DNA of 64,000 nucleotides, taken from an uncultured Alphaproteobacteria bacterium. GTDB taxonomy: Bacteria > Pseudomonadota > Alphaproteobacteria > UBA7879 > VGCX01. Below are positions 15,901-43,290 of this stretch, one piece after another. Location: positions 4-64,003 of the forward strand of contig CAJXSI010000004.1 in the NCBI GenBank assembly GCA_913061155.1. The letters run 5' to 3'. Every line of letters begins with the position of its first letter. Position 1 is the first letter of the stretch. The notes under the pieces were generated by a model. The model was not told the DNA's origin and did no database searches. It saw only the letters and a list, made by a program, of their open reading frames with translations. The position numbers were made by a program, and so were the translations under genes.

Positions 15901-16539
15901 AGATTATAACCATCGCCAACGCCAAATTAAAACCTTTAACAACATAGTTGATCCACAACACTATTCATCACAGACAATGAAGAGGGTCTGTCTTTGCATA
16001 GAATCGTCGCCCTGGTGCTTGACACCAGGATCCAGACCAGGGGTTGCCGGATACAAACCGCCTGCCTTTTAGCTTATGACTGGATTCCGGATCCAGAAGT
16101 CTATGGCAATCAATTTGTCTGTGATGAACAGTATTATGGATCCCACGGTCAAGCCGTGGGATGACGGCAAAAAAGAAGTGTTATTTACCCAATCCCTTGT
16201 TCCGTCATTGCAAGTATCAATAGGATACGCGGTGATCCATACTGCACCTCCAACCTCGTCGCTCCGCACTTGATCCGGGATCCAGTCATAAGCTTAATGA
16301 CAAACTAAAGTTGTGTCTAGTGAATCCCGCTCTGGGCCCCGCATCAAGTGCGGGGCGACGAAGTGAGATAGGGGCATCATAAACAAAAGGCAGACGCGTC
16401 GAACTCAGTAACCTATGGTCTGGACCCCGCATCAAGTGCAGTGCGACGAAGTTGAGGGGTGTCAAGTGGCACATGGATTCTGTTTGTCGCGCCAACGCCA
16501 ACGCCAAATTAAAACCTGCAACAACATAGTTGATGACAA
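15901..16539. repeat. Palindromic mosaic array A: REP copies at 16004-16034(+), 16137-16167(-), 16256-16284(+), 16333-16361(-) and 16421-16449(-), a collapsed copy at 16081-16094, and IS110 3'-end modules at both borders
   Basis: Read directly: YGTC-stem-CTTGA-stem-CCA units, with spacer modules shared with arrays B-D. Confidence 0.9.
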
Positions 16540-16578
16540 ACTAAAACTGAAATCAAAAATATTATTTAATAAAATGGC

Positions 16579-18798
16579 TTAAGAAAAACGATTGGATCTT
16601 GGAAATCCAGGAGGGGCAAAGCGACCCGTGCTGGCGCGTTTACCAACCCATTCTTGCACATTTTCCAATGTATATTGCTTTTTCCCGTTTTGCCATGACA
16701 GACCTTCTTGCAAGGTAAAGACTTTTAAATCAGACAAACCGCCACCACGATATTTCTGTAAAATAACCCCACGACCGCGGGTCATTAAAGGAATTTCTGA
16801 AATTGGCACAACCAATAAACGACGGTTTTCACCGATCATGGCAACATAGTCCCCATCGGCAGGCACAACCACCTGGGCTTTGGCGGGGGCCTTAACATTC
16901 AAAATTTGCTTTCCATTTTTGGTTTGCGCAAAGACATCTTTTTCATTAACCATAAATCCACGCCCGTCATCAGCCGCCACCAAAAGTTGGCGTTGGCTAT
17001 CCCCTTTGGCTGTAAGAACAGTCAGAATATTACTATCATTTTCAAGGTCAATCAATAAGCGCAATGGCTCTCCAAAGCCACGGCCACGGGGAATTTTGTC
17101 CCCAATAATGGTATAAAACCGCCCATTATCAACAAAGAATAAAATCTGGTCTGTTGTTTCGGCCTTGATTATTTGGAAGACTTTATCCCCCTCTTTAAAC
17201 TTGAAATCATGATCATCTTGATGGCCTTTTACCGCACGAATCCAACCTTTTTCAGACAGAATAATGGTAATTGGTTCTTTATCAATCATGGCTTCAAGCG
17301 GCATATCTTCAACTTCGTTCGCCGTTTCAAACTGGGTACGGCGTGCCCCAATCTGGGTTGACTTCCCAAATATTTTTTGGATTTGTTTTATTTCACCTTT
17401 GATCTTTTGCCAGCAAAGTTTTTCATCTTTCAACAAACCTTCCAGTTCTGATTTTTCCGCACTTAAGGCTGAATGTTCTTGCTTTATTTCAATTTCTTCA
17501 AGCTTGCGCAAAGACCGCAAACGCATATTTAAAATGGCATCCGCCTGAATTTCGGTCAGATGCCATTTGGCCATCATGATCTGTTTTGCATCGTCTTCTT
17601 CACGAATAATGCGAATTACCTCGTCCAAGTTTAAGTAGGCAATTAAATAGCCCTCTAGAATTTGCAGACGATGATTAATTTTATCCAAGCGGTGGATGCT
17701 GCGATTTTTTAAAACCACCAAACGGTGATCTAGAAAGGCTTGAAGAACCTCTTTCAAATTTAATACACGGGGCACATTATGCCCATCCACAACATTCATA
17801 TTTAATGAAGTACGTGTTTCCAAATCTGTTTGTTTAAACAAGGCCTGCATTAAAACTTCGGGTTTTACATTGCGACTTTTGGGGATTAACACGATACGCA
17901 CATCTTCCGTGGATTCATCTTGGATATCGGCTAAAATCGGTAATTTTTTGGACAACACCAAATCAGCCAAGCGTTCAACCAAACGACTTTTGGGAACTTG
18001 ATAGGGGATTTCAGTTATTATAATTTGATATTGGCCGCCTTTGACTTCTTCTACTTCATACTTTGCGCGAATACGAAAACTGCCGCGGCCTGTTTTGTAG
18101 GACTGAAGAATAGAGGCAGGTTCTTCAACCATGATGCCCCCTGTCGGAAAATCTGGGCCTTGAACATGCTCAACCAATTCTTCAATCGTTGAACTGGGCT
18201 TTCGAATAATTTGTAACAATGCTTCGCATAATTCATCTGCATTATGGGGGGGAATACTGGTGGCCATGCCCACTGCAATTCCCTCTGACCCATTGGCTAA
18301 CAAGTTTGGGAAGGCCGATGGCATAACAATCGGTTCTTGAAATTCCCCATCATAAGTGGATTTCATGGGAACAGATTCTTCTTCTAAGCCAATCATCATG
18401 GCTTCGGCAACGGCTGTTAATTTTGCCTCTGTATAACGCATCGCCGCCGCGTTATCCCCATCAATATTTCCAAAGTTCCCTTGCCCAAGGATCAAAGGAT
18501 ATCGAATGGTAAAATCTTGGGCAAGACGCACCAATGTATTATAGACGGCCAATTCCCCATGTGGGTGAAACTTACCAATGACGTCCCCAATAATACGGGC
18601 TGATTTTTTTGGGCTGCCTTTAGAATCCAATTTCAATTGACGCATCGCAAACAATATACGACGATGCACCGGTTTTAAACCATCCCGAACATCCGGTAAG
18701 GATCTGGACATAATTGTCGACAAAGCATAAGAAAGATACCGTTCACTTAACGCTTCTTTAAAAGAGACTGGTTTTATATTGGTTTTCTGGTCTGTCAT
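16579..18798 (-). CDS. parC: DNA topoisomerase IV subunit A
   Basis: YLSYALSTIMSRSLPDVRDGLKPVHRR, GDNAAAMRYTE, no GyrA box; downstream of recO. Confidence 0.96.
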   Translation of the reverse strand: MTDQKTNIKPVSFKEALSERYLSYALSTIMSRSLPDVRDGLKPVHRRILFAMRQLKLDSKGSPKKSARIIGDVIGKFHPHGELAVYNTLVRLAQDFTIRYPLILGQGNFGNIDGDNAAAMRYTEAKLTAVAEAMMIGLEEESVPMKSTYDGEFQEPIVMPSAFPNLLANGSEGIAVGMATSIPPHNADELCEALLQIIRKPSSTIEELVEHVQGPDFPTGGIMVEEPASILQSYKTGRGSFRIRAKYEVEEVKGGQYQIIITEIPYQVPKSRLVERLADLVLSKKLPILADIQDESTEDVRIVLIPKSRNVKPEVLMQALFKQTDLETRTSLNMNVVDGHNVPRVLNLKEVLQAFLDHRLVVLKNRSIHRLDKINHRLQILEGYLIAYLNLDEVIRIIREEDDAKQIMMAKWHLTEIQADAILNMRLRSLRKLEEIEIKQEHSALSAEKSELEGLLKDEKLCWQKIKGEIKQIQKIFGKSTQIGARRTQFETANEVEDMPLEAMIDKEPITIILSEKGWIRAVKGHQDDHDFKFKEGDKVFQIIKAETTDQILFFVDNGRFYTIIGDKIPRGRGFGEPLRLLIDLENDSNILTVLTAKGDSQRQLLVAADDGRGFMVNEKDVFAQTKNGKQILNVKAPAKAQVVVPADGDYVAMIGENRRLLVVPISEIPLMTRGRGVILQKYRGGGLSDLKVFTLQEGLSWQNGKKQYTLENVQEWVGKRASTGRFAPPGFPRSNRFS

Positions 18799-18882
18799 TT
18801 TTGTCTTAAATTATATTATTTACTTAGGTATCCAACCTGATGATGTCACTGATTATAAACGATGGCGCATGCAGTAACAGCA

Positions 18883-19608
18883 TTAAATTGGATAACTCTT
18901 TAACAGATTAACTAAGCGCTCTCGCATAGTAAAGAACTCTTTATACTTGGGTTCACAATAATGAATTTTCATAAAGTATTCTGTCAATTGAAACCCTTCT
19001 ATTATTTGATTTTTATCAGCTTTTACCCCTTGTGTCAAAAATCCAGGTAACGGCAATAATTTATCTTTGTAAGGCCCTGCGGCCCCCGATGCAACGGCCC
19101 GCCCTGTTTTTGGCGATACATATTTTAAATCGTCAAAGGAACCTGTAACACAGCATTGATCTAACTTTAAGGCAAATCCCAATTCCCCTATCATCGTTAA
19201 TTCAAACTTAATATAATATTGCAGCCAATCTTCAGTCGATAAGGATTCAATGAATTTTAATAATTCTTGATATAGATATTCATAAGGGTGCCGTTCTGGC
19301 AAGACTTTTATAATAAAGCCAGTTACGGCTGATAAGGCCAGCATTTTTTGTTGGGATTCAATAATGGCCCCCAAAGAACTTTTGATTAATTCTAAAGAGA
19401 AAGTACCAAGATGTTCGTCCAATCTTGCCCGCCATGTGGCCTGAACCAGGGATCCAGGTGAAACAGCCAACCGCATATTTTTTGATTTAAGGCTACGTGC
19501 CACCCCTGTACAATGGCCATTATTTTGGGTCAAAAGGTGAATAACACCTTTTCCTTCCCCAAACGGGCGGACACCTAAAACAATGCCATTATCTTGCCAT
19601 GTCGCCAT
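18883..19608 (-). CDS. recO: DNA repair protein RecO
   Basis: W.D.GIVLG.RPFGE, WRARLDEHLG, CCVTG...YVSPKTGRAV. Confidence 0.96.
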   Translation of the reverse strand: MATWQDNGIVLGVRPFGEGKGVIHLLTQNNGHCTGVARSLKSKNMRLAVSPGSLVQATWRARLDEHLGTFSLELIKSSLGAIIESQQKMLALSAVTGFIIKVLPERHPYEYLYQELLKFIESLSTEDWLQYYIKFELTMIGELGFALKLDQCCVTGSFDDLKYVSPKTGRAVASGAAGPYKDKLLPLPGFLTQGVKADKNQIIEGFQLTEYFMKIHYCEPKYKEFFTMRERLVNLLKSYPI

Positions 19609-19648
19609 TTATATTTCCTAAGCACGGATGATATTCTTATTAATTTGC

Positions 19649-19791
19649 GGGATTGTTACCCGCTGATATTTTTCTGGAGCGCGTTTTAGGAAAAGATAGA
19701 TTTGTAGGCGCAGCGTACCTGGCGTACGGGAGACATCAGAAATAATATTTTCAGCTAAAACCATTCCAAAAGTGTGTTTTGCAACGATCCC
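19649..19791 (-). repeat. About 143-bp RPE-1-like MITE, copy 1
   Basis: Imperfect TIRs GGGATTGTTAC...GCAACGATCCC and an internal GCAGCGTACCTGGCGTACG. It aligns end to end with 59000-59138. Confidence 0.75.
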
Positions 19792-19825
19792 TTAAAGACT
19801 TTATCACTATCGGGCCCCGTATGTC

Positions 19826-19880
19826 ATCAACTATGTTGTTGCTGGTTTTAATTTGGCGTTGGCGATGGTGATAATCTTAC
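19826..19880 (-). mobile_element. Isolated 3'-end fragment of the IS110 element (encodes ..[15 protein letters not shown] followed by TTGAT)
   Basis: Near-identical to 38030-38085 and 15901-15952. Confidence 0.85.
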
Positions 19881-19979
19881 TGAATTTAACGGACTGTTGC
19901 GTAGCCGTTCTTTTTGGCCGATTTTTGACGTGGGCAGGAATCAATTGAAACAGAACAAGATCTTAAACCAGTCTATGTT

Positions 19980-21203
19980 TTAGCTTTGCTTTTTGACATG
20001 GGAAGGAATCAATAGAAACAGGGCAAAACAGCTGAACAAGCTGATGGCGGCACTGGTTAAGAACAACGTAGAATGACCGTACATATCCCAAATTGTGCCG
20101 GCAAACCAACTGGATATAAAGATCGCGATTCCCATTGTAATATAGAAAATACCAAAGGCTGTCCCGCGGATATATTGCGGCGTTACATCTGAAATAAGCG
20201 AGACAAATATAGATTGCGTAATACCAAACTGCGCCCCCCACAAAAACACCCCGCACATTACCAGAAAAATACTATGCGTTATCGCCATCGTTACCCCGGC
20301 AAAAATCATCAAAAGAAACCCGCCTAACAAGACCTTACGACGTTCCATTGTATCGGAAAGACGGCCCAAAGGATACGCAACCAAAAATTGTCCTACGTTA
20401 AAAACCAACATAACTAAGGAAATATTTTCATTCAAAAGACCTGCGTCACGAACCCTGAAAACCAGATAGGATTCCCCAAAATGGGCCAGTTGAAAAATGG
20501 CTGTCAGAATAATAATTTTCCAATACGATCGGTTAAGTTCTTTAAAGGCACTCCACCGAAATTTCTTTTCATGTTTTTCTTCATCGCTGACAGTAAATTT
20601 ATTTTTGTGATTGGGTTCTTTAACGCAAAAAACAAATAGAATCAAGGCAAACCCTGCAGGGATTGTTGCATATAAAAACAAGGTGCGTAGGGAAATATCT
20701 GAATAAGTAAGAATAACGACAACTAAGGCAGAACCAATGAAAGAGCCCGCTGTTTTCAAAGACTTCGTCAACCCGTAAGATGCACCCCGAACACCCTTAG
20801 GGGCCAAATCACCAATCAATGCATCGCGCGGAGATGCCTGAATTCCGTTACTTATCCGATCCAAAGAACGAATCCAAAAGATCCAAACAACACTGCCCGC
20901 CATGGCGAACATAGGCTTTACAAGCATGGATAACGTATACCCCACCCCTAAGACAGCTTTGCGATTTTGAAAGATATCCCCGACAGCGCCGGAAAAGATA
21001 CGGATCAGATAAGCAACGAATTCAACGAATCCATCAATGCGTCCTACTTCTGTTCTAGAGGCCCCCAGTTCAGTTTCCATGAACAAAGGCATAACACTGA
21101 ACACCATAATTGTCGCAAGGTTGATCAAAAGGCCTACAAGACCTAATATCCATATACCTTTGGGAAGACCCAGAATTTTTTTCTCGTTTATATTTGGCAT
21201 CAA
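19980..21203 (-). CDS. MFS transporter
   Basis: About 12 hydrophobic segments; GAVGDIFQNRK, RDALIGD and GRLSDTMERRK motif-A-like loops. Confidence 0.92.
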   Translation of the reverse strand: MMPNINEKKILGLPKGIWILGLVGLLINLATIMVFSVMPLFMETELGASRTEVGRIDGFVEFVAYLIRIFSGAVGDIFQNRKAVLGVGYTLSMLVKPMFAMAGSVVWIFWIRSLDRISNGIQASPRDALIGDLAPKGVRGASYGLTKSLKTAGSFIGSALVVVILTYSDISLRTLFLYATIPAGFALILFVFCVKEPNHKNKFTVSDEEKHEKKFRWSAFKELNRSYWKIIILTAIFQLAHFGESYLVFRVRDAGLLNENISLVMLVFNVGQFLVAYPLGRLSDTMERRKVLLGGFLLMIFAGVTMAITHSIFLVMCGVFLWGAQFGITQSIFVSLISDVTPQYIRGTAFGIFYITMGIAIFISSWFAGTIWDMYGHSTLFLTSAAISLFSCFALFLLIPSHVKKQS

Positions 21204-21270
21204 TTTTTTCGATATTAAAAAAGAAAGGTACTCAACTTAAGGTTAAAAAACAACCCCTATAATAAAATAA

Positions 21271-22395
21271 TTATACTAAGCCAGGCGACCTTAAAAATAC
21301 TTTTGATTTTTTATCTATGTTTAAAGGCAATTTCTGTTGAACAATTGACCGTCGCATAATCGCTGTTAAGGGAACAAATTCAACCCCCTCTGTTTGTTTT
21401 TCCTTAATCCAAGCCAATGTTTCTTGCAAAGCCTTGGTTTCTGGGCTGACAAAAACAATCAGATATTTATTTTTTTCAAGAACACGATTTGCAACTTCTT
21501 TTATATCTGTTTTTTTATCCTTAAAAGTAAAACTTAAATGCCGCCTTAAGTAAGGGGATTTCAATTCCCGCGCCACATCCAACGCCTTGCTGTCCTTTGT
21601 TGTCATTGAATCAAGAAAGATGTATCCCTTTTTCTTTAAGATAGCCAACAGCTTTTTTATCGACCCTTGATTACTTGTAAACGCACTTCCCATTTGATTA
21701 CTGACCCCAATAACATAAGGAGTTTTTCGTAAAATATTTTGGACATAATCGTTTATTGTTTTTTCTGAATCATTTGCTTTCAGCCATTTTTTCCCCTTCA
21801 TAACCTTCGGAAGTTTTGATGGGTATAAAGGTTCCATAGGAATATGCGCCACAACTTCACGGCCTTTTTTATTGGCTAATTTCGCCAATTTTTGATAATT
21901 TTTATCATCCGTTGAAATTGTATAAGTCAAAGGAATATCATAATTTTTAAGGGCCTGCCATTCCCCCTGTTTTGCCTTGTTCACATCATTAATCACAATG
22001 GCCACCATCGGCTTATTAAGCCTATAAGGCCAGGAAACAGCATTCTTTAGCCACTTTGGTTGCTGTACTTGAACAAAAGGTTTTGACGTTGTTTCTTGTT
22101 GTTTGAAAACTTGCACCAATTCCGAATCGTCAAAGGCCTGGGCTGCAATCACATCTTCTTTAAGATCATCCATGTTTTCCAAATCATAAATGGTATCATC
22201 CCCATAGGCAGATCCATTTTCTTCTGTTAAAACCTCCGCATTAACAGAGGGGGGAATAACTTTTGGAGTATCTTTTAAAGAAGGCAACAGAAAAACGATT
22301 AAGGTGGAAACCAAGGCAATTAAAATAACCCACAAAACAAATTTGTTTTGTTTATTTTTTTCAGTTATTTTGGCTGGAAGACGACGGTCTGTCAT
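21271..22395 (-). CDS. Divergent polysaccharide deacetylase family protein (YibQ/DUF610-like) with an N-terminal membrane anchor
   Basis: PMVAIVIND, HIPMEP, GVSNQMGSAFT and FLDSMT motifs. Confidence 0.8.
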   Translation of the reverse strand: MTDRRLPAKITEKNKQNKFVLWVILIALVSTLIVFLLPSLKDTPKVIPPSVNAEVLTEENGSAYGDDTIYDLENMDDLKEDVIAAQAFDDSELVQVFKQQETTSKPFVQVQQPKWLKNAVSWPYRLNKPMVAIVINDVNKAKQGEWQALKNYDIPLTYTISTDDKNYQKLAKLANKKGREVVAHIPMEPLYPSKLPKVMKGKKWLKANDSEKTINDYVQNILRKTPYVIGVSNQMGSAFTSNQGSIKKLLAILKKKGYIFLDSMTTKDSKALDVARELKSPYLRRHLSFTFKDKKTDIKEVANRVLEKNKYLIVFVSPETKALQETLAWIKEKQTEGVEFVPLTAIMRRSIVQQKLPLNIDKKSKVFLRSPGLV

Positions 22396-24322: not shown

Positions 24323-24351
24323 ATTGTCCCCTTATTATATTTTATGCGTCT

Positions 24352-24981: not shown

Positions 24982-25064
24982 GGTGTGAATCCCCCTGGTT
25001 TATTTATCACATGGTTAAATATGTCATGATAAAGGACGAAATGCAATACTTTCAAAGTATTAAC

Positions 25065-25592: not shown

Positions 25593-25642
25593 TGTATTGC
25601 CCAGTATTTTAGAACTTTATCAAACGCTACCGCCCGCAGAAA

Positions 25643-29679: not shown

Positions 29680-30537
29680 ATGAAAAAAATTATTGGGCTC
29701 CTGTTGATAACTATTGGCTTTACCGGTGGTAAAACTTACGCTGCAGCCGCAGCCGCTTCTGCTGTTGTTGCAGAAGATACCCACCCTGACAGTGTGTCAA
29801 AAAAAATAGTTGGATCTTTTACAACCCCCGATGGTCATTACACACGTTTTTTGGGCTTACCTGATGGCAGGTTAACGTCGCATCTTTACAGAGGTAAGGT
29901 TATATACCCAATTCCCGCCGTACCTATATTACATCCCTATACTGATTTCATTCACCCTTGGATTGGTTTGGCGGCAAGAGCTCTAACAGCCGGCGTTCCC
30001 TTACCCAAATTCATAACAGATTTACCCGGAACTTTGGCCGATCATTTCTATGTTGTTCTGCAAGATACCCCAAAACCAGAGGCCGTCGCCCCGCGTATCA
30101 TAAGATTAAATTATCTTTTACATACGCATGATGATGAAAAAACTGACGGCATCGACTTAGCCGTAGGAGAACCGACAGGAATTGATAAGATTGCCATAAC
30201 AGATGGCGCCCCAACAGAAGGCGTTTATAAAAGGGTCAGTTCCCATACGCACCCAGGGGATGGCGTTGTTATTGCCTCTCCAAATATTGGAAAATTGGAT
30301 TTTGGAAAACCAGCAAGTGACATAGGATCTGCGGCCTTCTGGATGGTGCATCGCATGAATGGTGTTAAAACCCCCACCTTATTTATTATCATAAATGATA
30401 ATAAAAAAAATAATCTTTACCAGGCCGCATTAGACGCCGCCCCTGACATGGAAACATTAATGACAGGTCTATCTGTTGAAGGATTAATTGATGACCCTGC
30501 CACGCTTGTTCTTAAAAAGACACTTGGCTACGCATAA
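29680..30537 (+). CDS. Secreted hypothetical protein
   Basis: Signal-peptide-like MKKIIGLLLITIG..TYAAAA; 285-aa ORF; no family recognised. Confidence 0.7.
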   Translation: MKKIIGLLLITIGFTGGKTYAAAAAASAVVAEDTHPDSVSKKIVGSFTTPDGHYTRFLGLPDGRLTSHLYRGKVIYPIPAVPILHPYTDFIHPWIGLAARALTAGVPLPKFITDLPGTLADHFYVVLQDTPKPEAVAPRIIRLNYLLHTHDDEKTDGIDLAVGEPTGIDKIAITDGAPTEGVYKRVSSHTHPGDGVVIASPNIGKLDFGKPASDIGSAAFWMVHRMNGVKTPTLFIIINDNKKNNLYQAALDAAPDMETLMTGLSVEGLIDDPATLVLKKTLGYA

Positions 30538-30579: not shown

Positions 30580-30957
30580 TCGTCGCCCTGAATTTAGCCT
30601 GTCCTGGACTCCGATTAAGAAGGTCTGTCTTTGCATAAAACAGTCGCCCCGAACTTGATGCGGAATCCAGTCATAATCTAAAAGGCAGGCGGGTTGTATC
30701 GGGTGAATACTTTTCTGGACCCCGCATCAAGTGCGGGGAGACGAGAGGTTGGAGTGTCAAGTGCGGGGAGACGATTTCTATGCAAAGAAAGACCCTCTTC
30801 ATTGTCATTCCGGACTTGATCCGGAATCCACAGCGGTGTTTACTCCAGATACCTTGATTGCTGTAGACCTCTAGGACCCTGGTGTCAAGCACGGGGCGAC
30901 GACTTCTATACAAAGACAGCCCCTCTTTTCGTCTTCCCGGATTTGATTCGGGATTGC
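30580..30957. repeat. Palindromic mosaic array B: REP copies at 30642-30669(+), 30716-30744(-), 30755-30774(- partial), 30802-30830(+), 30872-30902(-) and 30929-30957(+)
   Basis: Same REP units and spacers as arrays A, C and D. Confidence 0.9.
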
Positions 30958-31020: not shown

Positions 31021-31278
31021 TTATTCGCCTGAAGGGACCAATCCCAAGGCTTTTTTATAAAGATCCAGCATATATTCTTGTTCTTGACGGTCGTCATGAT
31101 CCATCTTGCGCAATTTTACAATCTCTCGCAAAGTTTTTGTGTCAAAGCCATTCCCTTTTGCTTCGCTGTACACTTCACGCACATCTTCTGAAACTTTGGC
31201 TTTTTCTTCTTCTAAATTTTCAATACGTTCCACATATGATTTTAATTGTTCTGCAGAAACGCCACCTATATTTGTCAT
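31021..31278 (-). CDS. gapR: DUF2312 / GapR nucleoid-associated protein
   Basis: AEQLKSYVERIENLEEEK...EAKGNGFDTKTLREIVKLRKMD. Confidence 0.9.
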   Translation of the reverse strand: MTNIGGVSAEQLKSYVERIENLEEEKAKVSEDVREVYSEAKGNGFDTKTLREIVKLRKMDHDDRQEQEYMLDLYKKALGLVPSGE

Positions 31279-32279
31279 TTATTTTCACCTTTTTCTTTTA
31301 ATACATATTTCAATAGTTCTTCCAAAACCACCCGAACACCGGTATTTGCCACAGCTGATATTGGATAAATCTTTTGCCCTGTTGCCTTTTCTAATAAAGA
31401 TGTTTTTTCAAGAATTTTATCTTCTGTCAAGGCATCAATTTTGTTTAAAGCAATTATTTCAGGACGATTACTAAGGTCATCACTATATTTTTTCAGTTCG
31501 CCACGAATGGTTTTATACCTTTCAACAACGTCTTCTTCTGTTGCATCAATGATATGTAACAGCACACTACAACGTTCCACATGTCCTAAGAACCGTGTTC
31601 CCAGACCTGTCCCCATGTGCGCCCCTTCGATCAAACCAGGGATATCGGCCACTACGTATTCATGCTCTGCCACATAAATAACCCCCAATTGCGGATGAAG
31701 AGTTGTAAAGGGATAATCCGCCACTTTTGGACGAGCCCTGGATACTGACCGTAGAAAGGTTGATTTCCCAGCATTCGGCATCCCAAGCAGACCAACATCA
31801 GCGATTAACTTCATCTGAAGCCAAATCCACATTTCTTCCCCTAATGTCCCAGAACCTGCAATTCTTGGCGCACGGTTAACAGAAGTTTTAAAATGGGTGT
31901 TCCCTTTTCCGCCACGGCCACCATGACACAGAATAATTTCGTCATCTTTTTTTGTTAAGTCAAACAGAACTGTCTTTTTGTCATCTGCCAATACCTGGGT
32001 ACCTGCGGGAACTTCAAGAATCAGATCTTCACCTTTTCGGCCTGACCGGTCCTTACCCATTCCGTGATGTCCACGTTCTGATTTAAAATGCTGTTGATAT
32101 CGATAATCAATTAAAGTATTCAGATTATCGATAGCCCTGATAATGATATGGCCCCCATTACCACCATCTCCACCATTTGGGCCGCCGCGCGCAATATACT
32201 TTTCACGCCGGAAACTAACACAGCCGTCACCGCCAGCGCCACTTTTTACAAATATTTTTGCTTGGTCTAAAAATTTCAT
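31275..32279 (-). CDS. obgE: GTPase ObgE/CgtA
   Basis: MKFLDQAKI, Gly-rich Obg fold, GMPNAGKST, YPFTT, DIPG and NKID. Confidence 0.98.
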   Translation of the reverse strand: MKFLDQAKIFVKSGAGGDGCVSFRREKYIARGGPNGGDGGNGGHIIIRAIDNLNTLIDYRYQQHFKSERGHHGMGKDRSGRKGEDLILEVPAGTQVLADDKKTVLFDLTKKDDEIILCHGGRGGKGNTHFKTSVNRAPRIAGSGTLGEEMWIWLQMKLIADVGLLGMPNAGKSTFLRSVSRARPKVADYPFTTLHPQLGVIYVAEHEYVVADIPGLIEGAHMGTGLGTRFLGHVERCSVLLHIIDATEEDVVERYKTIRGELKKYSDDLSNRPEIIALNKIDALTEDKILEKTSLLEKATGQKIYPISAVANTGVRVVLEELLKYVLKEKGENK

Positions 32280-33037: not shown

Positions 33038-33061
33038 CTTACATTTACTCCTGAAATAATT

Positions 33062-33538: not shown

Positions 33539-33759
33539 AAAAAAACTCCATAAAGGCTAAAACAACCTAAAAACCTGGGGTTACACAGCATAGACCTTAG
33601 GGTTTTTAAGTATAAAAATAGTGCCACAATTGGCCCAAACAGTCAATTTCAAATACAAAAAACACAAAAAAGTAGATTATTTTCAAAGAAAGGGCTAGAT
33701 CTTCTTAAATTTAAGTGTCATAAATATATGTATTAAATAATAAGTAATAGGAGGATAAT

Positions 33760-34032: not shown

Positions 34033-34039
34033 AAACTGT

Positions 34040-34068
34040 GCGGGGGGAAATCCCTCGCTTTTATTTTT
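34040..34068 (+). terminator. Intrinsic terminator after hup
   Basis: GCGGGGGGAAATCCCTCGC hairpin followed by TTTTATTTTT. Confidence 0.6.
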
Positions 34069-34070
34069 GC

Positions 34071-35301: not shown

Positions 35302-35322
35302 ATAAAAAAATGAAAAAGAAAC

Positions 35323-36756: not shown

Positions 36757-36866
36757 GTCTTGAACGTCTTGGAAAGACTGTTCCCCAGTATTCATGGGGG
36801 TCTTGAAAATTTATAAACCATTCCCATATATATAGTAAGAACTTTAAAAACAATATATAGGGATAA

Positions 36867-37493
36867 ATGATTAAAATGATTAAGATTTTATTTAACAGAT
36901 ACACCAATTTTATTATGTTTGGCCTGGTATCAGGTGCCATCCTTGCATCCAGTATGCTTTCTGCGACAACGGCAGATCATAATGTACCTGTTTGCCCCCA
37001 AATAAATAATTCAGAGGATAAAGAACAAAAATTAAGTGATGTTTCTGCAGATGACTTACAAAAAGAAATTGCCAAGTTATCTGCAAAACAGCAGAAAGAG
37101 GTGGATGTTATAGCAAGAACCGTTTATGGCGAAGCCCGCGGGGAAAAAACGGATGATGCCTTAAAAGCCATTGCCCACGTTATTTTAAATCGAACGACTG
37201 ACAAGGAAAAGAAATGGGCCAGCTGTCCGATTAAAGTATCACAACAAAAATATCAGTTTTCTTGTTGGAACAAGAATGATCCGAACTATAAGTTAATTAC
37301 AAAGATCACACTGAAAAACAAAAATTTCAGACGGTCTTGTCGGGCTGCCCTGCAGGCTATAAAAAGTAAAGATATCACAAATGGCGCCAACCATTACCAC
37401 AGTGTCTTTATGAAACGTAAGCCACGATGGGCAAAAAATAAAAAGATGATTGCCTTGGCCCGCATCGGAAACCACAAGTTTTACAGAGCCTAA
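36867..37493 (+). CDS. Cell-wall hydrolase, SleB/CwlJ (Hydrolase_2) family
   Basis: ARTVYGEARGE, VILNR, YQFSCWN, GANHYH and IGNHKFY. Confidence 0.9.
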   Translation: MIKMIKILFNRYTNFIMFGLVSGAILASSMLSATTADHNVPVCPQINNSEDKEQKLSDVSADDLQKEIAKLSAKQQKEVDVIARTVYGEARGEKTDDALKAIAHVILNRTTDKEKKWASCPIKVSQQKYQFSCWNKNDPNYKLITKITLKNKNFRRSCRAALQAIKSKDITNGANHYHSVFMKRKPRWAKNKKMIALARIGNHKFYRA

Positions 37494-37496
37494 ATC

Positions 37497-37522
37497 AAAA
37501 GCCCCAGAAATGGGGCTTTTTT
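37497..37522. terminator. Bidirectional-type intrinsic terminator
   Basis: AAAAGCCCCA-GAAA-TGGGGCTTTTTT. Confidence 0.8.
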
Positions 37523-37666
37523 GTTCAACAATAATCAATATTTTTTAGAGAAAATCTAAGGAGATGACCTATATACGTAAGTTACGTATGCTTTAAAAGA
37601 CCTAATTTTAAAAAAAATAAAAAAGGGGTTGGCGAAAGCCCCTAAAAATAGTATATAAAAGTGTGT

Positions 37667-37742
37667 GCCGGCTTAGCTCAGTTGGTAGAGCAACTGATTT
37701 GTAATCAGTGGGTCGGGAGTTCGAGTCTTCTAGCCGGCACCA
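37667..37742 (+). tRNA. tRNA-Thr(TGT)
   Basis: GCCGGCTTAGCTCAGTTGGTAGAGC-ACTGA-TTTGTAA-TCAGT...GTTCGAGTC...CCGGCACCA. Confidence 0.97.
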
Positions 37743-37925
37743 TACTTTTTCAACGGCCTTAGGCCACCCCCCATCCTGTTTCAAAAAATAATGAAGTTAC
37801 AAAATCTTATGATTTTCTGTTACTAGACGTGTAACCATTACAAACTTGTTGCATGTGTAGATGTCTCCTGAAAGTATTTTATGTGTTGTATCAAAATCGA
37901 TTCTGAATAGCCAATCGAATTTGAT

Positions 37926-38034
37926 TCTTCGCCTCGTGTATAAGTTCACAAATTCACTGGCTGTTTTGATTCGTCGCCCCGCACTTGATGCGGGGCCCAG
38001 GGCGGTAGTCATCGGACACAATTTTCGTCATCAA
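37926..38034. repeat. Left part of mosaic array C: REP at 37971-37999(+) plus spacer modules, inverted relative to 38640-38738
   Basis: The reverse complement matches the modules at 38665-38738 and 43064-43139. Confidence 0.85.
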
Positions 38035-38835
<801 letters not shown>

Positions 38836-38910
38836 GAATAAGGAGTCTATCAAATTTATATATATACAAAGATGGATTGCTTATAGGTACGCATTAAAGC
38901 AGATACGCGT

Positions 38911-38935
38911 AAAAAAAAGAGGGGCAAAGCCCCCC
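38911..38935 (-). terminator. recA intrinsic terminator
   Basis: On the minus strand, GGGGGGCTTTGCCCCTC followed by 8 T. Confidence 0.75.
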
Positions 38936-38963
38936 AGTTTGGTAGTAAATAATAAGGTCTAAA

Positions 38964-39995
38964 TTACGCGTCAGCTTTGGCAACTTCGGCGTCTGCCAAG
39001 TTGTCGATAATACCACTTTGTTCCCGCAATTTACTTTCAATTTCATCGGCAACGTTGGGGTTTGCCTTTAAGAAACGGCGGGCAGATTCTTTCCCTTGGC
39101 CAATTTGATTGCCATTATAGGAATACCAAGATCCGGCCTTTTCAATTAAGTCAGCCTTCACGCCCAAGTCAATTAATTCACCAGTTTTGGAAATTCCTTG
39201 GCCGTACATAATATCAAATTCAACCACTTTGAACGGGGGCGCCACTTTGTTTTTTACAACTTTCACACGGGTTAGGTTTCCGACAACCTCGTCCTTATCT
39301 TTGATTGCGCCAATCCGACGAATATCAATACGAACAGAGGCATAGAATTTTAATGCATTCCCACCTGTTGTTGTTTCAGGGTTTCCAAACATAATCCCAA
39401 TTTTTTGACGAATTTGGTTAATAAAGATGACCATGGTACGGGATTTTGAAATGGATGCTGTTAATTTACGTAAGGCTTGACTCATCAACCTTGCTTGCAG
39501 ACCCATGTGGGAATCGCCCATTTCGCCTTCAATTTCGGCTTTTGGAACTAAGGCGGCGACACTGTCAACAACCAACACATCAAGGGCACCAGAACGTACC
39601 AAAGTATCGGCAATTTCCAAAGCTTGTTCCCCTGTATCTGGCTGGGAAATGATTAAGTCATTTGTGTTAACGCCAAGTTTACGTGCATAAACGGGATCCA
39701 AAGCATGTTCAGCGTCAACAAACCCACAAACACCCCCTTTTTTCTGGGCTTCGGCAATGACATGTAAGGTCAATGTTGTTTTCCCAGAACTTTCCGGTCC
39801 ATAAATTTCGATGATACGCCCGCGCGGTAATCCGCCAATACCAAGGGCCATATCTAACCCAATGGATCCTGTTGATACGGCATCAACTTGAACAGGGTTT
39901 TCATTTTGACCCAATGTCATAATGGCGCCTTTTCCAAAAGATCTTTCGATCTGTTTAAGGGCGGCGTCTAAGGCTTTGTTTTTTTCTGAACTCAT
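38964..39995 (-). CDS. recA: Recombinase RecA
   Basis: [24 protein letters not shown] and [10 protein letters not shown]. Confidence 0.99.
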
Positions 39996-40015
39996 GTCTG
40001 GACCTTTTTATCTTC

Positions 40016-40040
40016 TGGATCCCACATCAATTGCGGGACA
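40016..40040 (-). repeat. Degenerate solitary REP 20 bp upstream of recA
   Basis: TGGATCCCACATCAATTGCGGGACA resembles the reverse-strand REP consensus. Confidence 0.55.
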
Positions 40041-40287
40041 GTATTTAATGTCATTTGATAGCCATAACTTACCATGTTTTTTTGGGAAATCAAACCTATA
40101 CAATTATAATTTCCTTTAATATTTTATAGGACTGTTGCGTAGCCGTGCTTTATATAAAAACCTGACATCCCATCAAGAGTGAATTGATTTACTTATTTTC
40201 TTGTCACTCGGCGGGTTTTTGGATTTAATTGATGATCTCCATATTCTGTGATAGCCTTAGTTCATAAATAAAAATTAAGGGGTTGGG

Positions 40288-40620
40288 ATGAGGCACTTTC
40301 ACACAAAATTTTTGTATCTTTTGTTGTTTACATTTTCGGTATCAGATTCGTATGCTGCAGCTGAAGAAGGTGTCTTTCCTGTAACAAAAGTACCCATTGC
40401 CAAATTACCCTCCATTGCAAGAACAGCAATTGAAACAAGTTTTTCAAAAACTGTAAAAATACTTCCCCAAATGGCCGTAGTTTTTGGCCTTTATTCGTAT
40501 CCTTATCCACATAAAGAAAGTGCCCCTGTGTTAAGAAGACGCGCCGCCTCAAAACCCCAAATTTCTGTTAGCCCTGAAACTATGTATGGTTGGTTGGTAA
40601 GACAATTTGGGGTATTTTAA
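40288..40620 (+). CDS. Small exported hypothetical protein
   Basis: Signal-like N-terminus ending SYAAAEE; GGGG RBS-like sequence upstream; no family recognised. Confidence 0.5.
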   Translation: MRHFHTKFLYLLLFTFSVSDSYAAAEEGVFPVTKVPIAKLPSIARTAIETSFSKTVKILPQMAVVFGLYSYPYPHKESAPVLRRRAASKPQISVSPETMYGWLVRQFGVF

Positions 40621-40725
40621 TGCCAAATTTATCGCAATCTTACAGTTTTCATCATAATTCTTTCAATAAATCCTTGTCCTAAAGTGGGATCATGCATTAT
40701 ATAGAATATGTATATTTAATTATAT

Positions 40726-40752
40726 TGTCATCCCACGGCTTGACCGGGGGAT
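40726..40752 (+). repeat. Solitary REP upstream of aspS
   Basis: TGTCATCCCACGGCTTGACCGGGGGAT matches the 16137-16167 stem variant. Confidence 0.75.
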
Positions 40753-40785
40753 ATATTTTTATTTGAAACACAAAAAAGGATTATT

Positions 40786-42573
40786 ATGCATCCCTACAGA
40801 ACACATACATGTGGCCAAATACGCAAAAGTGATACCGGAACCATTGTCCGCCTATCGGGGTGGATTCATCGCAAACGTGATCATGGAAATTTACTTTTCA
40901 TCGATCTGCGGGATCATTACGGGATGAGTCAATGTGTGATCGATTCTGATAATCCGTTGTTTAAATTCGCTGAAGAAGCCCGTGTTGAAAGTGTTATTAC
41001 CGTCACGGGGCAGGTTATTGACCGCGAGTCATCAACCATTAATCAGACGCTGCCAACCGGTGAAGTCGAAGTACAAATTACAGGTATTCATGTGGAATCA
41101 CCTGCAGATGTTTTGCCTTTGCAAGTTAACGTTGACCGGGAATTCCCTGAAGAAACACGTTTAAAATACCGCTTTTTGGACTTACGCCGGGAAAAAATTC
41201 ACAGCAATATCGTTTTGCGTAATAATGTGATTTCCAGTATCCGTCGTCGCATGACCGACGCTGGGTTTATGGAATTCCAAACGCCTATTTTAACGGCCAG
41301 TTCCCCCGAAGGGGCACGTGACTTTTTGGTTCCCAGCCGTTTGCACCCGGGTCAGTTTTATGCTTTGCCGCAAGCACCCCAACAGTTCAAACAACTATTG
41401 ATGATGTCTGGTTTTGACAAATATTTCCAAATTGCCCCCTGTTTTCGGGATGAAGATGCCCGCGCAGACCGTTCCCCAGGGGAATTTTATCAGCTTGATA
41501 TGGAAATGTCTTTCGTAACCCAAGAAGATGTCTTTAATGCCATTGAACCTGTTTTACATGGTGTGTTCGAAGAATTCAGTGCGGGACGTACAGTCACACC
41601 AGCCCCGTTTCCACGCATTCCATATGCAGACGCCATGTTAAAATATGGATCTGACAAGCCAGATTTGCGTAACCCCATTTTAATCAGTGATGTGACAGAT
41701 GTTTTCCGGGGATCTGATTTTTCAATTTTTGCGAAAAACATTAATAACGGGTCTGTGGTTCGGGCCATTCCGGCCCCAGGATCGGCTGACCGTCCCCGCA
41801 GTTTCTTTGACAAAATGAATGACTGGGCACGCGGAGAAGGGGCCCCAGGCCTTGGCTATATCATTTTTGCAAATGGCGAAGCCAAAGGGCCGATTGCCAA
41901 ATTTTTGAACGCTGACCGTCTTGATATGTTGAAATCATTAACAGGTGTTCAGGATGGGGATGCTGTTTTCTTTGCTTGTGATAAAGTAAAGGGGGCGGAA
42001 CATTTGGCTGGCAAAGCCCGGACAAAGGTTGGCGAAGATCTGGATCTGATTGAAAAAAATGCGTTCCGTTTTTGTTGGGTGGTTGATTATCCGATGTATG
42101 AAATGGATGAAAAAACAGGCAAAATTCAGTTCAGTCATAATCCATTTTCCATGCCACAAGGCGGGATGGGTGTTCTTGAAACCCATGATCCCTTATCCAT
42201 TTTGGCGTATCAATATGATATTGTCTGTAATGGAATTGAACTGTGCAGTGGGGCGATTCGTAACCACTTGCCGGAAATTATGTACAAAGCTTTTGGTATT
42301 GCAGGATTTTCCAAAAAAGATTTAGAAGCCGAATTCGGCGGTATGCTACGGGCCTTGAAATTTGGCGCACCGCCACATGGAGGGTGTGCACCAGGTGTCG
42401 ACCGTATGGTGATGTTGTTAGCGGATGAGCCCAATATTCGCGAAGTTGTGGCGTTTCCAATGAACCAACAAGCCCAAGATTTGTTGATGGGGGCTCCGGG
42501 GTATGTTGATAAAGCCCACTTGCAAGAGGTCCACATTCGTGTGGTTGAGCCCCCAAAAACGGATAAGGGGTAA
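40786..42573 (+). CDS. aspS: Aspartate--tRNA ligase
   Basis: [37 protein letters not shown] and GAPPHGG. Confidence 0.98.
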
Positions 42574-42628
42574 GGTTTGGACCAGAGTTTTTTTGGTTTC
42601 ATCAGTGTTGCTTATTTATGGGTGCGCC

Positions 42629-43290
42629 GACACCAGGATCCGGTCATAAACTAAAACGGCAGGCGGGTTGTGTCTGGTGAGTGCCGCCCTGGACTCTGGT
42701 GTCAAGAACGGGGTGACGATTTCTATGCAAAGACAGGCCCTCTTCATTTGTCATTCCGGACTTGACCCGGAATCCAGAACACTGTTCATCACAGACAATT
42801 TGATTACCCTTAACAACATAGTTGATGACGAATGATTATACCCCGGTGATTCTATACGTATCGTCGCCCCGGACTTGATCCGGAATCCACAGCGGTGCTT
42901 ATCCCAGATACCTTGTCTGTCAGAGATACATGGATTCTGAACTAAATTCAGAATGACGAATTATTATACCCCGGTGATCTTATACGTATCGTCGTCCCGG
43001 ACTTGATCCGGGATCCAGTCATAATCTAAAAGGCAGGTGGGTTGTATACGGTGAATACCGCCCTGGACCCCGCATCAAGTGCGGGGCGACGAATCAAAAT
43101 AGTCAACGAATTTATGAACCCCTATATACGGGGAGACGACTTCTATGCAAAGACAACCCCTCTCAATTGTCATTCCGGACTTGATCCGGAATCCAGTCCA
43201 CCTTGGACATCTTTCTTCATTGTCATTCCGGACTTGATCCGGAATCCACAGCGGTGTTTACCGGATACAACCCGCCTGCCGTTTTGTTAC
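42629..43290. repeat. Mosaic array D (largest): REPs at 42690-42719(-), 42748-42776(+), 42861-42889(+), 42931-42959(-), 42989-43017(+), 43064-43092(-), a variant ending at 43139(-), 43167-43195(+) and 43220-43248(+); IS110 end at 42808-42826
   Basis: Read directly. Confidence 0.92.

What the first reader, a model, noticed from the sequence alone, without database searches (positions are those of the whole stretch)
15960..43290. Four BIME-like mosaic arrays built from a small kit of re-used modules with a fixed grammar
Seen: REPs alternate in orientation. Tail-to-tail pairs (CCA...TGG) are usually 46 bp apart (30670-30715, 38488-38533, 38619-38664, 43018-43063; inverted at 16035-16080) or 41 bp (30831-30871, 42890-42930). 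Head-to-head pairs (GACGA...TYGTC) are 26-29 bp apart. The same spacers recur in different orders and strands: GTCATAATCTAAAAGGCAG...ACCGCCC; CTTCTATGCAAAGACA..CTCTTCA; CAGCGGTG.TTA..CCAGATACC; ACT.TTCATCACAGACAATTTGATT; ATC/TAAAA.AGTCA.CGAATTT.TGAAC; TTATACCCCGGTGAT..TATACGTA; GGCA.AA.AAGAAGT...CCCTTGTT. The block 38590-38793 is nearly co-linear with 42989-43195. The 46-bp spacer at 38488 differs in sequence but keeps the length. Known: enterobacterial BIMEs have this alternating architecture and bind gyrase, IHF and Pol I. Inference: this is an independently evolved, actively rearranging modular repeat system with length constraints, which I do not recognise as described for this lineage.
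Basis: partly seen in the sequence, partly recalled or inferred. Interest (0 to 1): 0.75.

Follow-up and report, generated by a model that had tools for sequence, protein, structure and literature searches.

The report
REP hairpin arrays targeted by IS110
The four arrays are clusters of a widespread bacterial hairpin repeat (a CGTC-type REP) joined by linkers specific to this lineage, like the mosaic repeat arrays of Neisseria and E. coli, and they are landing sites for an RNA-guided IS110 insertion sequence, so this is a new example of a known kind.

Summary
The window has 22 clear REP hairpins plus about 8 degenerate or truncated ones. The unit is GTC, an 8- or 9-bp stem, the loop CTTGA, the stem, then CCA. 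All lie between genes, in four arrays and a few single sites. Coordinates, spacings, recurring linkers and the 204/207-bp co-linear block (89% identity) all check out.

- **Not independently evolved.** The hairpin fits the published CGTC-tagged REP superfamily. An exact 27-mer pattern of it occurs in more than 118 genome stretches from many phyla.
- **Linkers are lineage-specific.** The architecture matches Neisseria NIMEs and E. coli BIMEs.
- **The 46-bp spacing is mostly homology.** A separate length constraint is only weakly supported.
- **One module is IS debris.** Five fragments are the right end of a 1,181-bp IS110-family element. Intact copies in related metagenomes sit between the stem and the GAC head of one REP variant. 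The IS left end is predicted to encode a bridge RNA whose guides match that site.
- **Arrays differ between close relatives**, with one breakpoint exactly at a REP tail.

Verdict: a new member of a known kind, of modest interest. How the arrays are built, and by which enzyme, remains inferred.

The parts
15897..16540 (.). Array 1, between a histidine-phosphatase gene (15303-15884, +) and parC (16579-18798, -). Five REPs, a truncated REP, linkers, and IS right-end remnants at both edges.
   Evidence: same module order in independent assembly L001
30560..30960 (.). Array 2, between an ORF with no Pfam match (29680-30537, +) and obg (31275-32279, -). Three clear REPs, two degenerate ones (30872-30900 -, 30931-30957 +) and one loop-truncated REP (30755-30775).
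37915..38840 (.). Array 3, between tRNA-Thr (37667-37742) and recA (38964-39995, -). Six REPs, linkers and a 394-nt IS110 transposase fragment. recA has its own terminator at 38935-38917, between its stop codon and the array.
42620..43650 (.). Array 4, downstream of aspS (40786-42573, +). It starts with a half REP (42625-42641), holds 7 clear REPs, one degenerate REP (42690-42717) and one REP variant, and ends with a 305-bp repeated element plus REP 43621-43649.
16006..16034 (+). REP, 9-bp stem class
16137..16165 (-). REP, 9-bp stem class, perfect
16258..16284 (+). REP, 8-bp class, arms mismatched (CCGCA against TCCGG)
16333..16359 (-). REP, 8-bp class, perfect
16421..16447 (-). REP, 8-bp class, one mismatch
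30643..30669 (+). REP, 8-bp class, imperfect
30716..30742 (-). REP, 8-bp class
30804..30830 (+). REP, 8-bp class, perfect
37973..37999 (+). REP, 8-bp class, perfect. Its tail-side half-linker is followed by the IS right end.
38459..38487 (+). REP, 9-bp class, perfect
38534..38560 (-). REP, 8-bp class, loop CTTGG
38592..38618 (+). REP, 8-bp class
38665..38691 (-). REP, 8-bp class
38767..38793 (+). REP, 8-bp class, tail TCA
40016..40041 (-). Degenerate single REP upstream of recA. Conserved in L140 and L142; L144 has a different hairpin there.
40727..40755 (+). Single REP upstream of aspS. Present in the window and L140, absent (empty site) in L142 and L144.
42750..42776 (+). REP, 8-bp class
42863..42889 (+). 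REP, 8-bp class, outer stem mismatched
42931..42957 (-). REP variant TGG-ATTCTGAA-CTAAA-TTCAGAAT-GAC. This is the intact, unoccupied form of the site where the IS is inserted in L149-L153.
42991..43017 (+). REP, 8-bp class
43064..43090 (-). REP, 8-bp class
43169..43195 (+). REP, 8-bp class
43222..43248 (+). REP, 8-bp class
43621..43649 (-). REP, 9-bp class, perfect
38592..38691 (+). Tail-to-tail doublet, REP(+) - 46-nt linker - REP(-). This is the conserved core shared by 7 aligned copies. Other window copies are 30643-30742 and 42991-43090.
38561..38591 (+). Head-to-head linker (CTTCTATGCAAAGACA..CTCTTCATT family). Other copies: 15976-16005 (-), 30776-30803, 30901-30930, 38739-38766, 42718-42749, 43140-43168.
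38488..38533 (+). Second 46-nt tail-to-tail linker type, also present in L133
15897..15952 (+). IS110-family right-end remnant (last 56 nt of the IS, 96% identity)
16492..16534 (+). IS right-end remnant (last 43 nt), followed by GAC
19826..19880 (-). Solitary IS right-end remnant (55 nt) between recO and an MFS transporter gene. It is fused to a decayed copy of the REP variant loop and arm (TAAATTCAG).
38030..38423 (-). IS remnant of 394 nt (94% identity to IS positions 788-1181). It encodes the C-terminal 130 aa of the transposase (PF02371).
42810..42829 (+). Last 17-20 nt of the IS plus GAC, with the same right flank as the intact copy L153. The rest of the IS and the REP variant were apparently lost by a deletion at a TTAACA microhomology.
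43310..43620 (.). Conserved repeated element of about 305 bp, always next to a REP. Also found in L122 (96.5%) and L145 (87%) in other genomic contexts. Nature unknown.

Best explanation
The arrays are intergenic clusters of a CGTC-type repetitive extragenic palindrome (REP). The REP is a 27- or 29-nt DNA hairpin with an unpaired head (C/T)GTC and an unpaired tail CCA.

The REPs are joined by linkers specific to this lineage. Each half-linker travels with the REP end it touches. The apparent 'grammar' (tail-side linkers only between tails, head-side linkers only between heads) therefore follows automatically once REP-bounded pieces are duplicated, inserted or recombined. The most conserved unit is a tail-to-tail doublet, REP - 46 nt - REP.

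The host is an uncultured alphaproteobacterium whose closest named relatives are Paracaedibacter-like.

The arrays are also the natural insertion sites of a 1,181-bp IS110-family insertion sequence. The IS inserts between the 3' end of the stem and the GAC head of a REP, with core dinucleotide AT. Its left end is predicted to encode a bridge RNA whose loops carry guides for that junction and for the IS ends. Decayed right ends of this IS are one of the recurring 'modules'.

Shown: the hairpin and its covariation, the linker families, the IS and its insertion site, the guide matches, and the differences between relatives.

Inferred: REPs and doublets spread as non-autonomous selfish DNA by an unidentified enzyme; recombination at REPs, together with IS insertion and decay, reshuffles the arrays.
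For: - Hairpin. 22 copies, all between genes. Covariation is seen in copies selected without regard to pairing.
- Family. Head is CGTC in 13 and TGTC in 7 of 22; stems are 8 or 9 bp; the loop is 5 nt; the tail is CCA. These are the features of CGTC REPs in PMC3733652. The 27-mer pattern has more than 118 exact-match stretches in other genomes, including isolates of Sphingopyxis, Agrobacterium, Kaistia and Flagellimonas.
- Mosaic structure. In seven aligned copies the tail-to-tail doublet is conserved while both flanks switch among alternative modules at the REPs. Half-linkers recombine with other partners.
- IS. ORF 38035-38427 matches PF02371. An intact 312-aa transposase (P0241, PF01548 + PF02371) is 97% identical to the window fragment. 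Five intact IS copies are 99.7-99.9% identical, and all sit at TGGATTCTGAACTAAATTCAGAAT^IS^GAC.
- Bridge RNA. The left end folds with z = -3.8 into stem-loops with internal loops. These carry TTTCAGAAT (the left target flank), TTGTCAT (complement of ATGACAA, core plus right flank), ATAGTTG (the IS right end) and TTTACAAT (complement, allowing one G-U, of ATTGTAAG, core plus left-end start). This is the layout described for IS621 (PMC11208160).
- Remnants. There are five right-end remnants in the window.
- Dynamics. A REP is present or absent at an orthologous site. The window and L145 (aspS 97.6% nucleotide identity) are identical up to a REP tail and then diverge, with about 1 kb of array only in the window. 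Conserved synteny with relatives stops at the arrays.
Against: - No enzyme that moves the REPs themselves was found. There is no RAYT-like gene or other intact transposase in the parts of the window that were annotated, and no gene family is enriched near REPs in 118 other loci.
- The IS explains insertion into arrays. It does not explain REP multiplication.
- All comparison sequences are short-read metagenome assemblies, in which repeats can be collapsed or joined wrongly. The re-assorted left and right flanks of IS copies L150-L153 may be such artefacts.
- The bridge-RNA structure is a single-sequence prediction, and no Rfam family matches it.
- A host function for the arrays is not excluded.
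Confidence: 0.8

Rival explanations
1. One reading: a lineage-specific, independently evolved modular repeat system whose spacings (46/41 bp and 26-29 bp) are kept by selection, for example as a scaffold for DNA-binding proteins.
For: - The linkers are confined to this lineage.
- Two dissimilar tail-to-tail linkers are both 46 nt.
- Diverged homologues in L142 are 46-47 nt long, and the 3' half of the linker is conserved there.
Against: - The REP core is a member of a pan-bacterial family.
- Most equal spacings come from homologous copies that simply lack indels.
- Variants of 41, 44, 45 and 48 nt exist.
- No protein-binding evidence can be obtained here.
Confidence: 0.1
2. The modules are decay products of one larger MITE that was once inserted at each site.
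For: Composite blocks of 204-250 bp recur: 38590-38793 against 42989-43195 at 89%, and 38598-38837 against L124 at 89%.
Against: - Flanks of the conserved doublet switch among several alternative modules rather than decaying from a single order.
- There are no terminal inverted repeats or target-site duplications with consistent boundaries.
- Single REPs insert on their own.
Confidence: 0.05
3. The arrays are kept because they serve the host, as transcript-end hairpins that stabilise mRNA or terminate transcription, or as BIME-like sites for gyrase, IHF or nucleoid proteins. This is not exclusive of the selfish-DNA view.
For: - Three of the four arrays lie after the 3' ends of genes, two of them between convergent genes.
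- REPs in other bacteria are reported mostly downstream of coding regions (PMC3733652).
Against: - recA has its own canonical terminator between its stop codon and array 3, and REPs lack T-runs.
- G-T and A-C mismatches in the sense strand do not differ significantly (17 against 10 distinct types), so there is no sign of RNA-level selection.
- Arrays are gained and lost between close relatives.
Confidence: 0.15
4. The IS110 recombinase itself drives the shuffling. The IS inserts at REP heads, IS copies exchange or take part in half-site recombination, and scarless excision then joins flanks from different arrays.
For: - The IS cuts at the stem/head junction, and array copies lose homology at REPs.
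- L151 shows two inverted IS copies flanking one doublet.
- IS copies show re-assorted left and right flanks.
- Arrays hold many IS remnants.
Against: - Homology also switches at REP tails, where this IS does not insert.
- The re-assorted flanks may be assembly chimeras.
- Ordinary homologous recombination between REPs explains the same pattern.
- Related arrays exist in genomes sampled without an IS110 nearby.
Confidence: 0.15

Closest known systems
CGTC-tagged REP superfamily (Di Nocera, De Gregorio and Rocco 2013, PMC3733652)
   Same: - Unpaired head CGTC or TGTC, 8- or 9-bp stem, 5-nt loop, tail CCA.
- Intergenic location.
- Adjacent units have different stems (heterodimers).
- Commonest in Alphaproteobacteria.
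- No flanking dedicated transposase.
   Different: - Only 8 of 22 window copies start the stem with AT, which the paper describes as 'almost invariably' the case; 10 start with GC.
- Clusters and tail-to-tail dimers, described there as rare for CGTC repeats, dominate here.
- The host lineage was not in that survey.
- I could not see the paper's figure, so assignment to sub-family CGTC-2 or CGTC-3/4 rests on stem and loop lengths only.
Neisserial intergenic mosaic elements (NIMEs: dRS3 repeats flanking RS elements; PMC1797815)
   Same: - Arrays of a short CGTC-type inverted repeat separated by many families of reusable spacer sequences.
- Arrays vary between strains.
- Arrays contain insertion sequences.
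- The repeat is the integration site of a recombinase-carrying element. From my own knowledge, the Nf prophage enzyme is of the Piv/IS110 type.
   Different: - dRS3 is ATTCCC-N8-GGGAAT (CGTC-1, 4-nt loop), whereas here the loop is the 5-nt CTTGA.
- Spacer sequences are unrelated.
- The host is an alphaproteobacterium, not a betaproteobacterium.
- No link to antigen genes is visible.
E. coli BIMEs (own knowledge of the Gilson/Bachellier descriptions)
   Same: REPs of two or more stem types alternate in orientation, with distinct head-side and tail-side linker motifs.
   Different: - BIME REPs are GTAG-tagged, and the linker set is unrelated.
- Binding of gyrase, IHF or Pol I is untested here.
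IS110-family elements that target REPs: IS621 (PMC11208160), ISPpu10 (bioRxiv 10.64898/2026.03.19.712850), IS1111 in Coxiella QMITE2 (PMC5896051)
   Same: - DEDD plus PF02371 recombinase.
- A non-coding left end of about 240 nt with two guide-bearing loops.
- A 2-nt core.
- Insertion at a fixed position beside a REP stem-loop.
   Different: - The target is a CGTC-type REP (stem/GAC junction) rather than a GTAG-type REP.
- Activity is inferred from five near-identical copies, not assayed.
REPIN/RAYT systems (own knowledge; Bertels and Rainey, Nunvar et al.)
   Same: The best-conserved unit is an inverted REP doublet with a conserved spacer, and it occurs in many places.
   Different: - There is no GTAG head and no RAYT gene in the window or near REPs in sampled loci.
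- The doublet arms have different stems and cannot pair with each other.

Membership tests
CGTC-tagged REP superfamily | Unpaired 5' tetranucleotide CGTC (variants TGTC, CCTC) | tested here: met
   CGTC in 13, TGTC in 7, AGTC in 1 and GGTC in 1 of 22
CGTC-tagged REP superfamily | Stem of 8 or 9 bp, loop of 4-5 nt | tested here: met
   17 copies with 8-bp stems and 5 with 9-bp stems; loop CTTGA
CGTC-tagged REP superfamily | Stem begins with complementary A and T ('almost invariably') | tested here: inconclusive
   AT in 8, GC in 10, GT in 3, TC in 1 of 22
CGTC-tagged REP superfamily | Short unpaired 3' tail fitting CCA | tested here: met
   Required by the scan with up to 1-2 defects; 20 of 22 are exact
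CGTC-tagged REP superfamily | High copy number genome-wide | not testable with these tools
   Only 64 kb plus scattered contigs are available. Density is about 0.4 per kb in the window.
NIME (Neisseria) | dRS3 repeat ATTCCC-N8-GGGAAT flanking RS elements | tested here: not met
   The repeat here is GTC-stem-CTTGA-stem-CCA. Only a subset has ATTCC..GGAAT arms, and the inter-arm distance differs. The architecture is analogous.
BIME (E. coli) | GTAG-tagged Y/Z REPs with the S, L, l, r, s linker motifs | tested here: not met
   The head is CGTC, not GTAG. The linkers are specific to this lineage.
BIME (E. coli) | Binding of gyrase, IHF or Pol I | not testable with these tools
   Needs biochemistry
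IS110 family with bridge RNA | Recombinase with a DEDD domain (PF01548) and a PF02371 domain | tested here: met
   P0241 carries both (precomputed). The window fragment has PF02371 only.
IS110 family with bridge RNA | Site-specific insertion around a 2-nt core | tested here: met
   Five copies at ..TTCAGAAT^..IS..GTTGAT^GAC, with AT on both sides
IS110 family with bridge RNA | Non-coding end encoding an RNA with target- and donor-binding loops | tested here: met
   Guide-like strings are at left-end positions 94, 120, 161 and 193, in predicted internal loops. This is a prediction only, with no Rfam match.
IS110 family with bridge RNA | Circular intermediate and RNA-dependent recombination | not testable with these tools
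   Needs an assay
REPIN/RAYT | GTAG head and a RAYT gene flanked by REPs | tested here: not met
   The head is CGTC. No Y1 transposase appears among the annotated genes of the window or among enriched ORFs near REPs. Absence from the whole genome is not testable.
MITE | Terminal inverted repeats, target-site duplication and fixed boundaries | tested here: not met
   Flanks switch at REPs and no common ends are seen

The most novel reading that the evidence does not exclude
REP heads in these arrays are more than passive landing sites. They would be substrates on which the bridge-RNA-guided IS110 recombinase repeatedly exchanges DNA. The arrays would then be natural RNA-guided recombination cassettes whose module order is rewritten by the IS. 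The same class of enzyme might also account for the long-missing mobilising activity of CGTC REPs, which occur with a near-identical 27-mer in very many phyla.
Probability: 0.08. Interest if true: 0.7.

Novelty: new member of a known kind. Interest (0 to 1): 0.33.

Why it matters
- It extends mosaic REP arrays (the BIME/NIME type) to an uncultured, probably amoeba-associated alphaproteobacterial lineage.
- It gives a clean, sequence-level example of a bridge-RNA IS110 element whose guides can be read against a CGTC-type REP. Di Nocera et al. reported no associated transposase for that repeat class.
- The wide spread of an almost invariant 27-mer, including genome bins labelled Patescibacteria and archaea, sharpens an open question: what moves and conserves CGTC REPs?
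- On the practical side, the arrays mark synteny breakpoints and assembly breaks in these genomes.

Tried and rejected
- **Coxiella QMITE1/2.** I first suspected a gammaproteobacterium. QMITE2 carries a GTAG REP, and the organism is an alphaproteobacterium.
- **Sequence strings in the literature.** No hits.
- **Rfam.** Only two tRNAs in the window, and nothing for the 305-bp element or the IS left end.
- **Strand-specific selection.** G-T against A-C mismatches were 17 against 10 distinct types, which is not significant, and the reverse trend appears in other genomes.
- **Chimeric REP arms as proof of crossovers in the loop.** Most imperfect REPs differ by single changes that look the same as point mutations.
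- **A gene family enriched near REPs in 118 other loci.** None found; the largest cluster covers 9 loci and is not a transposase. There are no IS110 homologues there either.
- **The TCATCACAGACAATTTGATT module as the IS left end.** Rejected once the intact IS was found. It is a tail-side linker that happens to adjoin the target REP variant.
- **The 305-bp element as the IS left end or a structured RNA.** It has no similarity to the IS, and folding z-scores are -0.96 and -0.88.
- **REPs as terminators.** There are no T-runs, and recA has its own terminator.
- **Mapping homology breakpoints to heads rather than tails.** Not resolvable, because REP homology itself extends every alignment across the REP.
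- **A covariance model for REPs.** Abandoned because MAFFT misplaced the gaps between the 8- and 9-bp classes.

Full report
**What is in the sequence**

The window has about 40% G+C and comes from a metagenome-assembled genome. The same parC locus is on ENA contig ERZ23500601 scaffold_37. AspS is 100% identical to that of GCA_034669985.1. The best named relatives, at about 74% identity, are 'Candidatus Paracaedibacter sp.' and unnamed Alphaproteobacteria. The host is therefore an uncultured alphaproteobacterium.

The repeated unit is a hairpin: GTC, an 8- or 9-bp stem, the invariant loop CTTGA, the complementary stem, then CCA.
- A scan allowing up to three defects finds 22 copies. None lies in the long ORFs that cover about 87% of the window.
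- About eight more are degenerate, truncated at the loop, or carry another loop. The variant at 42931-42957 has loop CTAAA.
- Copies chosen by head, loop and tail only (78 in the window plus related contigs) nearly all have paired arms of many different sequences.
- In the 9-bp class all nine pairs show compensatory changes. 84% of cells pair, against 61% in shuffles and 44% or less with slid partners.

- The 46-nt and 41-nt tail-to-tail gaps and the head-to-head gaps are at the stated coordinates.
- The listed linkers recur on both strands.
- 38590-38793 and 42989-43195 are co-linear at 89% identity.
- Orientation alternates in most but not all neighbouring pairs.
- Array 1 is identical in an independent assembly (L001). 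Part of array 4 is reproduced in L121.

**What family the hairpin belongs to**

Di Nocera et al. (PMC3733652) define CGTC-tagged REPs by four features: a CGTC or TGTC head, an 8-9-bp stem, a 4-5-nt loop and a CCA tail. They are commonest in Alphaproteobacteria and have no associated transposase. The window's copies fit: CGTC in 13 and TGTC in 7 of 22. The one departure is that the stem starts with AT in only 8 of 22.

The hits include isolates (Sphingopyxis, Agrobacterium rosae, Kaistia, Stakelama, Flagellimonas). They also include bins labelled Patescibacteria, Chloroflexi, Nitrospirota, Bacteroidota, Omnitrophota and a Methanosarcinales archaeon. By my own estimate, about 47 bits of pattern against about 1.2e12 searched positions gives roughly 0.01 chance matches. 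So the hairpin did not evolve independently in this lineage.

**The linkers and the 'grammar'**

- The linker sequences were found only in 19 metagenome contigs retrieved with the 46-nt linker and in L145. They are absent from the 118 other REP loci. At BLAST level they are also absent from relatives with 88-95% AspS identity.
- By eye, L142 has a diverged homologue of the 46-nt linker, 46-47 nt long with a conserved 3' half.
- Aligning seven copies shows the conserved core to be the doublet REP(+) - 46 nt - REP(-). Both flanks switch among alternative modules at the REPs.
- The 46-nt linker is two halves, each tied to the REP tail it touches. The half next to the CCGCA-type REP also pairs with other partners, in the 41-nt linker and in a head-to-tail linker.
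- The head-side linker likewise shares its head-proximal half with a 24-26-nt head-to-tail linker.

The grammar therefore follows from REP-plus-flank units being joined at REPs. Equal spacing mostly reflects homology. The second 46-nt linker type (38488; also in L133) is the only hint of a length constraint.

**An insertion sequence inside the arrays**

- ORF 38035-38427 (-) is the C-terminal part of an IS110-family transposase (PF02371).
- Its last 20-58 nt recur at 15897-15952, 16492-16534, 19826-19880 and 42810-42829.
- Extending the query with contig L148 led to an intact 312-aa protein (P0241, with PF01548 and PF02371), 97% identical to the window fragment.
- Five contigs carry a 1,181-bp IS that is 99.7-99.9% identical between copies. 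The left end is 237 nt, the gene 939 nt, and the element ends ..CATAGTTGAT.
- In all five, the left flank is TGGATTCTGAACTAAATTCAGAAT and the right flank starts GAC. The IS therefore sits between the stem and the head of the CTAAA-loop REP variant, with AT as the shared core.
- The unoccupied site is present in the window at 42931-42957.
- In L151 a second, inverted IS copy abuts ATTCCGGACTTGATCCGGAATCCA. This is the same junction in an ordinary REP.

The left end folds better than shuffles (z = -3.8) into stem-loops whose internal loops hold four strings:

| String in the left end | What it matches |
|---|---|
| TTTCAGAAT | left target flank |
| TTGTCAT | complement of ATGACAA (core plus right flank) |
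| ATAGTTG | right end of the IS |
| TTTACAAT | complement of ATTGTAAG (core plus left-end start), allowing one G-U |

That is the arrangement of target- and donor-binding loops described for IS621, which also targets REPs (PMC11208160). A preprint reports that ISPpu10 needs a stem-loop beside its target. IS1111 targets the REP in Coxiella QMITE2 (PMC5896051).

The window holds only decayed right-end pieces at 93-96% identity. At 42777-42829 the spacer is joined to the last 20 nt of the IS across a TTAACA microhomology. The right flank there is the same as in intact copy L153.

**Dynamics**

- A single REP upstream of aspS is present in the window and L140 but absent in L142 and L144.
- Nucleotide similarity to L140, L142, L144 and L145 runs from the recA stop codon to just past the aspS stop codon and ends at the arrays.
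- Downstream of aspS, the window and L145 are identical through a half REP (..CACCAGGATCC) and diverge exactly at its tail. About 1 kb of array is present only in the window.
- L145 has its own array elsewhere, built from the same modules.

The arrays are therefore turned over between close relatives. Ongoing rearrangement within a population is not shown.

**Function**

I found no evidence for a host function. REPs lack T-runs, and recA has its own terminator before array 3. There is no strand bias in wobble mismatches. No gene family is enriched near REPs elsewhere, and no IS110 lies near them in the sampled genomes. What multiplies the REPs remains unknown, as Di Nocera et al. stated.

**Comparison and verdict**

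The closest system by architecture is the Neisseria NIME. There, CGTC-1 repeats flank more than 100 spacer families, the arrays vary between strains and contain IS elements, and the repeat is an integration site (PMC1797815). E. coli BIMEs are similar in layout but use GTAG REPs.

This is a new member of a known kind. The most useful new detail is the readable match between an IS110 bridge RNA and a CGTC REP.

Noticed in passing
window 43310-43620; L122 3950-4293; L145 4671-5055: A conserved element of about 305 bp (87-96% identity) occurs in three different genomic contexts, always beside a REP(-). It is bounded by TTAACGGGAAA direct repeats and by similar A-rich..GGGG CTGGAT sequences at both ends. 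It has no Rfam hit, no similarity to the IS, no conserved ORF that I could see, and folding z-scores of only about -0.9.
   Followed up: partly
L003-L120 (genome-contig scan): The exact 27-mer REP pattern occurs in more than 118 stretches from very many phyla, including bins labelled Patescibacteria, Omnitrophota, Dehalococcoidia and a Methanosarcinales archaeon. It is often paired tail-to-tail with the GTCATTCCCGC..GCGGGAATCCA type. This spread is far wider than the five phyla reported in 2013. Bin contamination is not excluded for single contigs.
   Followed up: partly
L151 1-420: Two copies of the IS in inverted orientation flank one tail-to-tail REP doublet, each inserted at a REP head junction. 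IS copies L150-L153 also show re-assorted left and right flanks, which may be real recombinants or assembly chimeras.
   Followed up: no
window 15569-15596 and 15873-15900: A 28-nt direct repeat (89%) has one copy inside the histidine-phosphatase ORF and the other at its 3' end, directly abutting an IS right-end remnant. It may record a rearrangement of the gene end.
   Followed up: no
window 15897, 19880 (and IS positions 1126-1127): Two IS remnants start within 1-2 nt of each other at GTAAGATTAT. This resembles the true left-end start TGTAAGTT, and the 19880 copy is fused to ..TAAATTCAG of the target REP. This suggests deletion between the left junction and an internal look-alike site.
   Followed up: partly
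L145 8414-9241 and L140 7130-9781, against window 40196-40700: Close relatives carry extra genes between recA and aspS that the window lacks: a 275-aa ORF in L145, and three ORFs in L140. L142 has an ankyrin-repeat gene there.
   Followed up: no
L129 1183-1260; L145 about 5190-5250: The CTAAA-loop REP variant itself carries an insertion of about 24 nt (TCCTGGATCGGGGTCCAGGACAGG) in some copies. In L129 it is followed by a left-end-only remnant of the IS.
   Followed up: no
one search hit list: The nearest named relatives of the transposase fragment are in Legionella, Rickettsia bellii, Odyssella, Caedimonadaceae and Wolbachia, all intracellular or amoeba-associated bacteria. Many of these are truncated genes.
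   Followed up: no
window 40016-40041 against L144 about 3010-3040: Upstream of recA, the window, L140 and L142 have a degenerate REP. L144 has an unrelated hairpin (GGCTAAG..CTTAGCC) at the same position.
   Followed up: no
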